From: Malacoraja senta
Lineage: Eukaryota
Assembly: GCA_038087875.1 (NCBI GenBank)
Contig: CM075987.1
Location: forward strand, 19,096,001-19,160,000
Direction of reading: 5' to 3'
DNA: 64,000 nucleotides
This document shows, in pieces, positions 58,701 through 61,700 of the stretch. Position numbers: made by a program. Every line of letters begins with the position of its first letter. The stretch's first letter is position 1.

Positions 58701-61700
58701 TCTTCGTTACTCTTTTTATCTTCCCTGTCTCAGTATGCTGCTTCAACAATTTCATCCTCTTTCCATGCAATCTTCAGGGATCTGTAGGCACACAGCCAAA
58801 GGTCCAATTGGTTAGCTAGACTTCTCTTGTGCATTCCCTTGCTTTATTTTCCCTCCACAGGTTCGTTACTTCATGGTCCTTTTGACTGAATTCCTTTAGC
58901 ATGTTTCGGGTCAGGACCCTTCTTCAACAATTTATTAATATGTTCCTCTGGTCAAGATGATCTCTGACAACCACCTGGCCTATTCTTGCATGGTTTGTAA
59001 ATCTCTTGATTATGACTCCATTTATGTCTAACTCATTGATAGATATCATGTAATCCACACAAACTACATGATCGGCGGGAGGGTTGGGATATTGGTGGGA
59101 GGGTTTGATTGATTTCCGAGGGCATGATTTACTCTCGTCATAAATATGAAGAAACAAAAGATATGAACAGATTAATTTCTGTTCAGATTATTAGCAAACA
59201 GTAAGAAGATACTAAGGCTTCTGGCCCAAAAAGTCATCTGTCCATTCTCTCCTTTAATACGGCCTGACCTGCTGAGTTCCTCCAACCCTTTGTTTTGAGC
59301 AAGGTTTTGTTTATATAATTTGCAAGAAATTATGTTTCAGTATACTGTGCTCGACTGATTGATTTGCTTGAAATCATTTTTTTATTAGTTTATCAGTTCT
59401 GGGAATTTGATAATACTCTTGATCCATATCCAAACAGCATATCATCTCTGATGTTTATAATAATTAGTGCTTAACAAATTAAGTTATTACAGGAAGATAA
59501 AATGACCTCTATTCCAATCTATACACCACCTTAATATCCTTTAGCTTTTAACAAATTTGTAAACAGATGCTGTTATTATTTGAGTCTTCAGAATTCCTGT
59601 TTTATCCGACATGACAAAGCTTTGGTCTGATTGTGTTATATTTTCCAAACTTAATTCAGCGTTTACAAAGTGTACAAATAGATTGCTAGGATAATCCTAC
59701 AATTCAAGGGAAAACAATTCAAGGGATTGTGTAGGAACGAATATAGGGGGGTTGCACGTAAGGTCACTGGGTCATAGGGCTTGACGCACGGAGCCGCTGA
59801 ATCCATCTGGAGGACATCGCAGCTTCCGGTATATGTTGTTAATACACGAAACGCGTACTTTCCTACCTGTTAAAAACTGGCAAAATGTTGAATTTTTGCA
59901 CTGTAAAAAATTGTGGAAGTCGGGGTAAGCGTGAGAGACATGTACCCAACTTCAGAATTCCAAAAGTGAAGCGAAATGAAGGTAAAGAGAAGCGAGAGCT
60001 GAAGGGACAACAACGGCTAAAGTGCTTGGCGAACATTGGCCGTGCAGATATCGAAATTGAAAATATTTGGAATTATCGCGTTTGCTCACTGCATTTCATC
60101 AACAGTAAGGCATTATTTGTGTCTTTTCTTGATTCCTTTGGTATCTAAAAAGTCTCAGAAGTGATAAATCTGGCTGTAAATTTTGCTTCAGAGGCATTTT
60201 CTTTTTGTATGTAAAAACCCACTTGAGAACCATGGGCGATTTTAAAATTTTACAGCCAGATTTATCACTTCTGAAACTTTTTAGATGCCAAAGGAATCAA
60301 GAAAAAACACAAATAATGCCTTACTGTTGATGAAATGCAGAGCAAACGGCCAATGTTCGCCAAGCACTTTGGCTGTTGTTGTCCCTTCAGCTCTCGCTTC
60401 TATCTACTGTCATTTCTCCTCACTTTTGGAATTCTGAAGTAGGCTAAATGTCTCTCACGCTTATCCCGATTTCCATAATTATTTACAGCGCAAAAATTGA
60501 CAATTTCAGCGGGTTTTAACGGGCCCGCTACGCTGGAAACAATGGTCAGTGCTTACCTGCAGTTCATCGCGTGTACTCCATTTGGCGTAGCATAACAACA
60601 GTACGGGTCATGGGTCGTGACTCGACTGCCGTGCAACCTCCCTATAGGTGGAGAGATTAAAGCTTGCCATTACAAAATTACAGAGATAATTAACAACTGT
60701 CCACCTTCACTGTCTCCTGTGCCCTGATGGCTTTATCTGCCCTTTTTCTTCCCACTTTGTCTACCCCTGTCTCTCCACTACCCACCCCATGGCTCCATCT
60801 TCCTTCAATCAACCCTCCTGTCCACCTGTCCCCAACTGTGCCCTCTCTCACCCCTGTCCCTGTCCCGTCCCCTCTATACTGACTATCTTCCCCCTCCACT
60901 CACAGTCCGGATGCAGGATCTCGAGCAAATGGTCACAATTCTCTACCCCACACATGCTGCTCAATCCGCAAGTTCCTCCAGCAGATTGTTTCTTTTGCTC
61001 CAGATTGCAACATCTGCCGTCAATTGTGTCTCAGATTGGTTATGTTTTTTTCTTCAATCTCAGCACCCGTTCACATTAATTGTTGCCTTTGATGCCTACA
61101 AGATTTTTCAATTAGCTCGCAAAATATTTAACATTGGCATTAATCATTTATCCTGCCACGTTCATTAAAGATTCATTTCACTTCCACCCCTCTCTTATGC
61201 AGTCTGTTTTAGAAATTAGCCCCCGTAATCTGTTTGCACATGTTATACAGTGTGATGTGCTCTACAGCAGGAACAATCAAAAAAATATTGATCACGCTTG
61301 TCTTTTTTTAAATGCTGTAGTATAATAGAATGATTGAAGGAACCTAAAAACTGGTGTGCAGTCTGTAATTGGGAGTGGTTAATATATAATAGTTAAAATT
61401 CAATGACTAATTCGGAAATTTATTTTTATCAGGAGTGGTCGGTAGGTTAATTGTCCTCCTGTAAAAAGTGTACAAATGAGTGGTCGAATTGGGAGTTGAT
61501 GAGAAAATGGGGAGAATAAAATTGGTTGAGAGGAAGATTAGTGATGGTGTTTGCCGATCAGCACACACTCAGTGGGCCGAAGGAACAGTTTCCATGCTCT
61601 GTAATTCTATGATTAGGATGTTTAACTCAACCACATGGAGGAATAGAAGCAATTAAATCAAGATGCCTTTAAGGGGAAATTTAAGCTAGATCATGATCAA

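What the first reader, a model, noticed from the sequence alone, without database searches (positions are those of the whole stretch)
59745..60643. Fold-back transposon with two inward-facing THAP exons: a possible Mu-killer-like hairpin silencer
Seen: short TIRs flanked by AT, unique subterminal regions, and inverted arms 59869-60184 / about 60246-60520 around a spacer of about 60 nt. Each arm holds the first exon of a THAP-domain protein plus the start of its intron. The right arm has lost about 40 bp. Both arms share Cys at the usually invariant Trp, so that change predates the duplication. Established: ISL2EU-type transposases have N-terminal THAP domains and AT TSDs, and maize Mu killer is an inverted duplication of a transposon 5' end whose read-through hairpin silences the family in trans. 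Inference: transcription through this locus would give an imperfect dsRNA of about 270 bp matching transposase mRNA.
Basis: partly seen in the sequence, partly recalled or inferred. Interest (0 to 1): 0.68.

Follow-up and report, generated by a model that had tools for sequence, protein, structure and literature searches.

The report
Decayed fold-back THAP transposon remnant
This is a small, worn-out DNA transposon that carries two inward-facing copies of the first exon of its family's transposase gene; it could fold into a long RNA hairpin, but nothing shows that it silences anything.

Summary
An 899-bp element (59745-60643) has 14-nt terminal inverted repeats and flanks reading TATA on both sides. 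Its two subterminal regions are unrelated. Inside lies a fold-back of 319 and 279 nt around a 60-nt spacer. The left arm encodes the first 74 residues of a THAP zinc finger (Pfam 29.4 bits, cut-off 23.9) and ends at a GTAAGG splice donor. The right arm is a broken inverted copy: ATG lost, a zinc-ligand Cys changed to Tyr, an in-frame stop, and a 40-column gap that shifts the frame. Both arms carry Cys where 15 of 15 relatives have Trp. The only transposase architecture found among relatives is THAP + HTH_Tnp_4 + DDE_Tnp_4 (9 of 44 scanned), which is the ISL2EU/PHIS type. The arms differ at 29 of 279 aligned positions, and 17 of 18 differing codons change the residue, so there is no coding constraint. 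I read it as an old, non-autonomous ISL2EU-like deletion derivative whose interior was replaced by an inverted copy of its own 5' exon. That is a known kind of repair product. The Mu-killer-like silencer idea is structurally possible but untested. No eukaryotic genome, transcript or small-RNA data were available, and no autonomous partner was found.

The parts
59743..59744 (.). Left candidate target-site duplication (AT). The flank reads TATA, so TA or TATA are equally possible.
   Evidence: Sequence. No empty site exists in the window to decide between them.
59745..59758 (+). Left terminal inverted repeat, 14 nt (17 nt if the flanking TAT is counted).
   Evidence: Pair I3. Only 2 matches in the window, both at the element's ends.
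59759..59865 (+). Left (5') subterminal region, unrelated to the right one. Presumed promoter and leader of the transposase gene (inferred).
   Evidence: not similar to 60524-60629 in either orientation.
59866..59884 (+). Outer edge of the left arm: 19 nt of leader before the ATG.
   Evidence: Identity between arms here is 68%.
59885..60104 (+). Left-arm exon 1: THAP zinc finger, residues 1-73 plus the first base of codon 74. Zinc ligands C5, C10, C67 and H70 are present. Cys replaces the conserved Trp at codon 47 (60023-60025).
   Evidence: Pfam THAP at 29.4 bits against 23.9. Alignment A1. Codon checked.
60105..60184 (+). Left-arm start of intron 1. The GTAAGG donor is at 60105-60110.
   Evidence: Alignments to relatives stop here. 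The THAP profile breaks off at 58-64 of 87 in ten relatives too: P0093 and P0014, P0048, P0049, P0051, P0053, P0070, P0081, P0090 and P0106.
60185..60244 (.). Unpaired 60-nt spacer, the loop of the fold-back.
60245..60523 (-). Right arm: an inverted, broken copy of leader + exon 1 + intron start. The ATG is ATT (60504-60502). The Cys10 codon is TAT (60477-60475). There is an in-frame TAG (60402-60400). A 40-column gap relative to left 60041-60088 shifts the frame. Cys again sits at the Trp codon (60366-60364).
60524..60629 (.). Right (3') subterminal region, unique. It holds a donor-like CAG|GTAAG on the minus strand at 60559-60552.
60630..60643 (-). Right terminal inverted repeat, 14 nt with 1 mismatch to the left one.
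60644..60645 (.). Right candidate target-site duplication (AT). The flank reads TATA.

Best explanation
This is a single, old, non-autonomous copy of an ISL2EU-like (PHIS superfamily) cut-and-paste DNA transposon.

It keeps both ends of the parent element: two 14-nt terminal repeats and two different subterminal regions. It also keeps the 5' leader, the first (THAP) exon of the transposase gene and 80 nt of intron 1. Everything else is gone, including the rest of THAP, the HTH, the DDE domain and any second gene. That interior has been replaced by an inverted copy of the stretch from 19 nt before the ATG to intron position 80, leaving a 60-nt loop.

The most likely origin (inferred) is a strand or template switch. 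This would have happened during repair of an excision gap or during replication, and it is the usual way internally deleted and fold-back derivatives arise. With both ends intact, the element could have been moved in trans by the family's transposase.

Since the duplication both arms have decayed neutrally. If the locus is transcribed from the left, by its own leader or by read-through, the RNA would fold into an imperfect hairpin of about 280 bp, of which about 200 bp is transposase leader and exon. Whether that RNA exists, is diced, is edited, or ever repressed the family is not shown.

My judgement is that the hairpin is a by-product of how the deletion derivative formed, not a maintained silencer.
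For: Structure:.

THAP identity: (above Pfam's cut-off). C5, C10, C67 and H70 fall in invariant columns.

ISL2EU-type kinship:
- phmmer against 1.84 billion representatives gave 234 hits at E <= 1e-3. The best single-domain hits are 37-50% identical.
- Of the 150 listed, I scanned the 44 of at least 180 aa with Pfam. Nine carry HTH_Tnp_4 and/or DDE_Tnp_4 after the THAP: 8 of 20 and 1 of 24. No other transposase family appeared.
- PMC4482050 and PMC4122938 (passages read) describe ISL2EU transposases as THAP + HTH + DDE, with 2-bp AT duplications, terminal repeats of 6-259 bp and ends usually starting GG. Here a 2-bp AT duplication fits, a 3-bp one does not, and the end reads (A)GGGGGG.

Non-autonomy: no HTH_Tnp_4, DDE_Tnp_4 or YqaJ in any of the 162 stop-to-stop ORFs of at least 75 aa in the window. 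tblastn with 8 THAP-transposase relatives found nothing beyond the two arms at E <= 1.

Decay:
- 29 of 279 aligned positions differ, a Jukes-Cantor distance of 0.11.
- Of 18 differing codons among 52 compared, 17 are nonsynonymous. 78% would be expected at random.
- At several residues the right arm is nearer the family consensus (V3, A6, N12, D14, Y22). So the left arm has drifted too.
- The right arm has four disabling lesions.
Against: - No close relative exists in any collection I could search. The best hits are at most 50% identical, and both word-based searches found nothing. Family assignment therefore rests on one 74-residue domain.
- 35 of the 44 scanned relatives show no transposase domain. 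Most are too short to show one. Some are clearly not transposases, such as THAP+BTB, THAP+C2H2 and multi-THAP proteins.
- The extended ISL2EU target A|AT|T is not seen; here it would be T|AT|A.
- The duplication is equally readable as TA or TATA.
- The inner arms (95.9%) are more alike than the outer arms (85.7%), Fisher p = 0.008. Uniform neutral decay does not predict this. It needs gene conversion near the loop, a chimeric origin, or some constraint on the inner stem.
- The left ORF is still open for 87 codons from its ATG.
- Copy number is unknown. Only this one copy is in the window.
Confidence: 0.72

Rival explanations
1. It is a Mu-killer-like trans silencer. Transcription through the fold-back gives double-stranded RNA that is processed into small RNAs, which repress the family's transposase mRNA or mark its copies. 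Because the hairpin lies inside a mobilisable element with its own leader, active transposase would spread it, giving negative feedback.
For: - An inverted duplication of the transposase 5' exon is present and folds very stably.
- Five perfect duplex runs of 21-34 nt remain.
- No AATAAA or ATTAAA on the + strand lies between the left end and the right arm. The first is at 60656.
- The left arm keeps the leader and ATG, so the element's own promoter, if there is one, would read into the hairpin.
- Precedents: the Mu killer abstract (PMC3440606, search listing). [quoted passage not shown]
- The higher identity of the inner stem could reflect some constraint.
Against: - No expression, small-RNA or editing data were available.
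- No autonomous target was found.
- The arms are 10% diverged with a 40-nt bulge.
- The better-kept inner stem is intronic, so it would not match mature mRNA.
- Both precedents are from plants, which have RNA-directed DNA methylation.
- The window's other repeats look like those of a vertebrate (my recollection, not tested). There, long hairpins are more often edited or ignored than diced (recalled).
- Fold-back derivatives arise readily without selection.
Confidence: 0.1
2. The left arm makes a short THAP-only protein, in the manner of the KP repressor of P elements (recalled). This protein would occupy the family's terminal binding sites and so repress transposition.
For: An ATG-initiated ORF of 87 codons is open at 59885-60148. 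It has all four zinc ligands and a Pfam THAP score above the cut-off.
Against: - The ORF covers only THAP profile positions 1-58 of 87. It then runs into intron sequence with no match to the C-terminal part seen in relatives.
- The near-invariant Trp is Cys.
- The 17:1 ratio of nonsynonymous to synonymous differences between the arms shows no purifying selection.
- phmmer found no solved structure at E <= 10.
Confidence: 0.03
3. It is not one element. It is either two truncated copies that landed head to head, or an assembly artefact such as a palindromic chimera.
For: Inverted arms around a short spacer are what head-to-head insertions or fold-back chimeric reads produce.
Against: - Head-to-head 5' ends would repeat the 5' subterminal region at both sides. 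The two subterminal regions are unrelated, while the terminal repeats match at 13 of 14.
- An artefactual palindrome would be near-perfect. These arms differ at 29 positions plus a 40-column gap.
Confidence: 0.04
4. It is an ordinary high-copy MITE-like family in which this fold-back is the family consensus, amplified for its own sake. It might occasionally be a source of hairpin-derived microRNA-like RNAs.
For: - It is small (899 bp), with terminal repeats and short AT-rich flanks.
- The hairpin attracts sub-threshold Rfam matches to three microRNA precursor families that I take to be long, repeat-derived hairpins (recalled): MIR8007 72.2 bits, mir-607 49.9 and 48.4 bits, MIR7504 36.9 bits.
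- The origin of hsa-mir-548 from Made1 MITEs is a precedent (PMC1784062, abstract in the search listing).
Against: - Copy number could not be measured. There is no second copy or stray terminal repeat in 64 kb.
- All Rfam matches are far below their gathering scores of 195, 94 and 83.
- This reading overlaps the best explanation. It differs only in copy number.
Confidence: 0.11

Closest known systems
ISL2EU group of the PHIS (PIF/Harbinger-ISL2EU-Spy) DNA transposons, non-autonomous derivatives
   Same: - The THAP N-terminus is most like those of THAP-HTH_Tnp_4-DDE_Tnp_4 proteins.
- The terminal repeats are short and G-rich.
- A 2-bp AT duplication in an AT-rich target is possible (PMC4482050 and PMC4122938, passages read).
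   Different: - There is no DDE, HTH or YqaJ sequence in the element or the window.
- The flanking bases are T..A, not A..T.
- The duplication is ambiguous (AT, TA or TATA).
- The interior is an inverted duplication of exon 1, which is not mentioned in the passages I read.
- PMC9179366 (passages read) found ISL2EU only in teleosts among the vertebrates it sampled. The host of this window is unknown to me.
Maize Mu killer (Muk)
   Same: It is an inverted duplication of the 5' part of a transposase gene that can form a hairpin RNA (PMC3440606, abstract seen in the listing).
   Different: - Muk duplicates the terminal repeat TIRA as well, gives a hairpin of about 4 kb, and is read from a flanking gene.
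- Its silencing is shown genetically.
- Here the duplication starts 121 bp inside the element, and the hairpin is about 0.28 kb and 10% mismatched.
- Both transposon ends are intact here, and nothing functional is shown.
Maize Ac/Ds composite insertions made by alternative transposition
   Same: Inverted repeats of fragments of a DNA transposon are transcribed from the transposon's own or a flanking promoter into double-stranded RNA (bioRxiv 10.1101/2020.01.07.897926, abstract and headings).
   Different: - Those arise from two nearby elements plus re-replication, and are not themselves bounded by a normal pair of ends.
- siRNAs and silencing were measured there and not here.
MITE-derived hairpin microRNA genes (for example hsa-mir-548 from Made1)
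   Same: A small non-autonomous DNA transposon whose palindromic body folds into a hairpin (PMC1784062, abstract in the listing). There are sub-threshold Rfam matches to hairpin microRNA families.
   Different: Those hairpins are formed by the terminal repeats themselves and are short. Here the arms are internal, long and carry coding sequence. No Rfam family reaches its gathering score.
Foldback (FB) elements of Drosophila; KP repressor of P elements; Tc1 read-through dsRNA in C. elegans (all recalled, no call)
   Same: These are, respectively, long inverted arms, a mobile non-autonomous repressor that keeps a THAP domain, and transposon double-stranded RNA made by snap-back of inverted sequence.
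   Different: - FB arms reach the termini and are built of tandem repeats.
- KP acts as a protein.
- The Tc1 double-stranded RNA comes from the terminal repeats.

Membership tests
THAP domain (PF05485) | Score above Pfam's gathering cut-off | tested here: met
   Left arm: 29.4 bits against 23.9, E 1.4e-6; 29.2 bits for the longer ORF. The right arm could not be scanned because of its stop. It matches the left arm at 68% over 53 aa.
THAP domain (PF05485) | C2CH zinc ligands (Cys, Cys, Cys, His) | tested here: met
   Left arm: C5, C10, C67 and H70 fall in the four invariant Cys/His columns of alignment A1. Right arm: C10 is Tyr, and C67/H70 are out of frame.
THAP domain (PF05485) | Conserved Trp in the middle of the domain | tested here: not met
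   W in 15 of 15 aligned relatives; Cys (TGC) in both arms.
THAP domain (PF05485) | Complete domain including the C-terminal part (profile positions 59-87) | tested here: not met
   The match stops at profile position 58 of 87. The ORF continues into non-matching intron sequence. No second exon is in the element or window.
ISL2EU (PHIS superfamily) | Transposase with a DDE_Tnp_4 catalytic domain, plus HTH and THAP | tested here: not met
   The element holds only the THAP exon. No DDE_Tnp_4 or HTH_Tnp_4 is anywhere in the window. Kinship is indirect: 9 of 44 scanned relatives of the THAP exon have these domains.
ISL2EU (PHIS superfamily) | Second ORF with a YqaJ exonuclease domain | tested here: not met
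   No YqaJ hit in 162 ORFs of at least 75 aa. This is expected for a non-autonomous copy.
ISL2EU (PHIS superfamily) | 2-bp AT target-site duplication, target A|AT|T | tested here: inconclusive
   AT flanks 59745 and 60643, but the flanks read TATA, so TA or TATA also fit. The outer bases are T and A, not A and T. No empty site is available.
ISL2EU (PHIS superfamily) | Terminal repeats of 6-259 bp, usually starting GG | tested here: inconclusive
   The length of 14-17 nt fits. The end reads A-GGGGGG, so it starts GG only if the duplication is TA or TATA (criterion from PMC4482050).
Mu-killer-type hairpin silencer | Inverted duplication of the 5' part of the transposase gene | tested here: met
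   Arms 59866-60184 and 60245-60523 hold the leader, exon 1 and the intron start.
Mu-killer-type hairpin silencer | The duplication includes the terminal inverted repeat (two copies of TIRA in Muk) | tested here: not met
   The arms begin 121 bp inside the left end. The subterminal regions are unrelated.
Mu-killer-type hairpin silencer | Hairpin transcript, derived small RNAs, heritable silencing of the autonomous element in trans | not testable with these tools
   No transcript, small-RNA or genetic data were available, and no autonomous element was found.
MITE | High copy number of a short, non-coding element with terminal repeats and a target-site duplication | not testable with these tools
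   No eukaryotic genome collection was available. There is one copy in the window. Size (899 bp) and terminal repeats fit. It keeps a coding exon.
Rfam microRNA precursor families MIR8007, mir-607, MIR7504 | Score at or above the family's gathering score | tested here: not met
   72.2 against 195; 49.9 and 48.4 against 94; 36.9 against 83.

The most novel reading that the evidence does not exclude
It is a mobile hairpin silencer in an animal. On this reading, a non-autonomous ISL2EU-like element keeps both transposon ends and its own leader, and uses them to express an inverted duplication of the transposase's first exon. The family's own transposase would then copy the source of double-stranded RNA around the genome, giving built-in, dose-dependent negative feedback on the family. 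Mu killer and the Ac/Ds composite insertions are fixed loci; this would be a transposable one. The better-preserved inner stem (95.9% against 85.7%) would reflect selection on, or conversion of, the hairpin.
Probability: 0.06. Interest if true: 0.72.

Novelty: new member of a known kind. Interest (0 to 1): 0.3.

Why it matters
As it stands this is a routine repeat annotation: one more internally rearranged, dead DNA transposon in a repeat-rich stretch.

It is worth a cheap follow-up for two reasons.
- It is a clean natural example of how a deletion derivative can acquire an inverted copy of its family's coding exon while staying mobilisable. That is the raw material from which hairpin silencers such as Mu killer are thought to arise. 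If small RNAs map to it, it would extend that idea from plants to an animal DNA transposon.
- If the host is not a teleost, an ISL2EU-like element would bear on the claim in PMC9179366 that, among the vertebrates sampled there, only teleosts carry this group. I could not establish the host.

Tried and rejected
- Close relatives or an autonomous partner. The search for homologous proteins with the exon found nothing among longer proteins (7 candidates, none at E <= 1e-3) or among proteins of similar length (no candidate). phmmer over 1.84 billion representatives found only relatives at most 50% identical.
I did not pursue this further, so the organisms and names of the relatives are unknown.
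- Other copies, a stray terminal repeat or a paralogous empty site in the window: none.
- Rest of the transposase in the window: none by Pfam on 162 ORFs or by tblastn.
- Hidden similarity between the two subterminal regions, which would make the whole element one palindrome: rejected.
- Known RNA family: only sub-threshold hairpin matches.
- Solved structures by sequence: 0 hits at E <= 10.
- Tandem repeats in the element: none. The only array, at 60852-60871, lies outside it.
- Literature on ISL2EU hairpin or fold-back derivatives. The search 'ISL2EU / non-autonomous / hairpin' listed three papers holding all three terms. I opened one of them, PMC13668399, with a term search. It mentions hairpin only as a PCR artefact and ISL2EU only as an outgroup. 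Searches for Mu-killer-like loci in animals listed reviews and plant papers. From the listings I saw no animal case, but I did not read those papers.
- Not done: no structure prediction, complex prediction or atlas search, because the domain is already named.
- The window has no N. I did not take it for human: it holds a long Tc1-type ORF and this THAP element. No tool call established the host.
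Full report
**What is there**

The window has no N. Between 59745 and 60643 lies an 899-bp unit bounded by a 14-nt inverted repeat, 59745-59758 and 60630-60643, with one mismatch. That motif occurs nowhere else in the 64 kb with up to 2 mismatches; 0 of 100 shuffles gave two matches.

Both flanks read TATA. A 3-bp duplication, the PIF/Harbinger type, does not fit.

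Inside the ends lie 107 and 106 bp of subterminal sequence. These are no more alike than shuffled sequence in either orientation; 119 and 113 of 1000 shuffles scored as well. The element therefore has two different ends, like a normal transposon, and is not a simple palindrome.

**The fold-back**

Arms 59866-60184 and 60245-60523 face each other across a 60-nt spacer.
- They align over 279 columns with 29 mismatches, 16 of them transitions.
- There are 40 gap columns where the right arm lacks sequence.
- Identity is uneven: 85.7% in the outer 175 columns and 95.9% in the inner 98 (Fisher p = 0.008).
- As RNA the element folds at -515.9 kcal/mol against -239.7 +/- 8.6 for 20 shuffles, z = -32.
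- Five perfect runs of 21-34 nt remain.

**The coding content**

The left arm opens with an ATG at 59885.
- Its 74-residue translation (P0001) scores 29.4 bits on Pfam THAP (cut-off 23.9, E 1.4e-6) over profile positions 1-58 of 87.
- In an alignment with 15 relatives, C5, C10, C67 and H70 sit in invariant columns.
- The column that is Trp in all 15 relatives is Cys here. The codon is TGC in both arms.
- The reading frame meets GTAAGG at 60105. tblastn alignments of eight relatives all stop at 60103-60121.
- The THAP match also breaks off at profile position 58-64 in ten of the relatives' gene models: P0093, and P0014, P0048, P0049, P0051, P0053, P0070, P0081, P0090 and P0106.

The intron itself is an inference.

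The right arm is the same stretch inverted and broken. ATG has become ATT, Cys10 has become Tyr, there is an in-frame TAG, and the 40-column gap puts the last Cys and His out of frame.

**Which transposon family**

phmmer against 1.84 billion representative proteins gave 234 hits at E <= 1e-3, of which 150 are listed. The best single-domain matches are 37-50% identical, so the family itself is not in that library. The two word-based searches found nothing.

I scanned with Pfam the 44 listed hits of at least 180 aa.
- Nine have HTH_Tnp_4 and/or DDE_Tnp_4 downstream of the THAP: 8 of 20 and 1 of 24.
- The other 35 show THAP alone or with BTB, C2H2 or further THAP copies.
- One, P0010, shows no THAP at the threshold used.
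- No other transposase family appeared.

THAP + HTH + DDE is how PMC4482050 and PMC4122938 describe ISL2EU transposases (passages read). They also describe a YqaJ second gene, 2-bp AT duplications, a preferred target A|AT|T, and ends that usually begin GG.

Against those criteria:
- The element fits on terminal-repeat length.
- It is compatible on the duplication and the GG start.
- It does not fit on the outer target bases.
- It carries no DDE, HTH or YqaJ sequence, and neither does the rest of the window (162 ORFs; tblastn).

I therefore call it ISL2EU-like and non-autonomous. I do not call it a proven member.

**How it probably arose and what it does**

The element keeps both ends of the parent, the 5' leader, exon 1 and 80 nt of intron. 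The stretch from 19 nt before the ATG to intron position 80 is repeated in reverse, directly abutting the 3' subterminal region. The simplest origin is a template switch during gap repair or replication. Such a switch would have deleted the interior and copied back along the new strand, leaving a 60-nt loop. This is inference; no junction signature proves it.

Since then both arms have drifted.
- Seventeen of the 18 differing codons change the residue, where 78% would be expected at random.
- At several positions the right arm, not the left, keeps the residue common in relatives.

So neither arm has been kept as a coding sequence. That argues against a KP-like THAP repressor, as do the truncation at profile position 58 and the lost Trp.

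The arm-to-arm distance is 0.11. At an assumed 1-2 x 10^-9 substitutions per site per year this would be some tens of millions of years. That rate is my assumption and comes from no call.

**The silencer idea**

The structure needed is there. The left arm's leader faces into the hairpin, and no AATAAA or ATTAAA interrupts it on the + strand; the first is at 60656.

There are precedents:
- Mu killer (PMC3440606, abstract seen in the listing).
- The Ac/Ds composite insertions, which are transcribed from the Ac or a flanking promoter (bioRxiv 10.1101/2020.01.07.897926, abstract and headings).

But several things weigh against it:
- Both precedents are in plants.
- Nothing here shows transcription, small RNAs or a living target.
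- Only about 200 of the 280 paired positions are exonic or leader.
- The best-kept part of the stem is intronic.
- Unlike Mu killer, the duplication excludes the terminal repeat.

The one observation that plain neutral decay does not explain is the identity gradient towards the loop. Gene conversion between arms is the ordinary explanation, and it would also weaken the argument that the Cys predates the duplication. I give the silencer reading about 0.1 overall, and 0.06 for its boldest form, a transposable self-limiting hairpin.

**Other readings**

- An assembly palindrome or two head-to-head copies is rejected by the diverged arms and the unrelated subterminal regions.
- Rfam finds only sub-threshold matches to three hairpin microRNA families.
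- Whether this is a one-off or a high-copy MITE-like family cannot be told.

**Scope notes**

Only the single exon, as it stands, was searched.
- I did not take the window for human. No tool call established the host.
- Supplementary tables of the ISL2EU papers, which were closed, might hold closer family descriptions.

**Verdict**

This is a real, nicely preserved structure with an ordinary most-likely meaning: a decayed fold-back deletion derivative of an ISL2EU-like DNA transposon. The hairpin-silencer reading is open but unsupported.

Noticed in passing
window 59762-59774 and 60544-60616: The pentamer GGTCA occurs four times in the element (59762, 59770, 60544, 60606), all on the + strand. 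Its complement TGACC never occurs. Two copies lie 8 nt apart just inside the left repeat. GGGTC pairs lie 7 nt apart just inside the right repeat. These could be transposase (THAP) binding sites, but they are in direct rather than inverted orientation at the two ends.
   Followed up: partly
window 60552-60559 (minus strand): The right subterminal region carries a consensus-like splice donor CAG|GTAAG reading inward from the right end. It may be the remains of the first, possibly non-coding, exon of a second inward-facing gene of the parent element, such as the YqaJ gene of ISL2EU. No protein match was found.
   Followed up: no
window 60656-60661: The first ATTAAA poly(A)-type signal on the + strand lies 13 bp beyond the right end of the element. 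There is none inside it. This may be chance.
   Followed up: no
window 60119-60312: There are sub-threshold Rfam matches to hairpin microRNA precursor families (MIR8007, mir-607 on both strands, MIR7504), centred on the loop. All are far below their gathering scores. I take them as generic long-hairpin matches.
   Followed up: yes
window 20750-21842 (minus strand): This is a Tc1/mariner-type transposase remnant. A 218-aa ORF hits HTH_Tnp_Tc3_2 (E 7.5e-20), and a neighbouring ORF has a DDE_3 fragment.
   Followed up: partly
window 51523-53409 (minus strand): This is the fragmented pol of an LTR retrotransposon: RVT_1, RT_RNaseH_2, Integrase_H2C2 and rve in successive ORFs broken by frame changes. 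ORFs continue to about 54898.
   Followed up: partly
window 6173-7916 and 38922-39656: These ORFs look like the C-terminal tails of LINE ORF2 proteins. The ORF at 7461-7916 hits ALKBH8_N (E 6.8e-10). I recall that this model picks up LINE tails. The 245-aa ORF at 38922-39656 has no Pfam hit, but from memory it resembles CR1-like tails of non-mammalian vertebrates. The resemblance was not tested.
   Followed up: no
window 45283-45982: This G+C-richer stretch (0.46 against about 0.39 nearby) has long overlapping open frames on both strands and no Pfam hit. It could be a CpG-island-like or low-complexity region.
   Followed up: no
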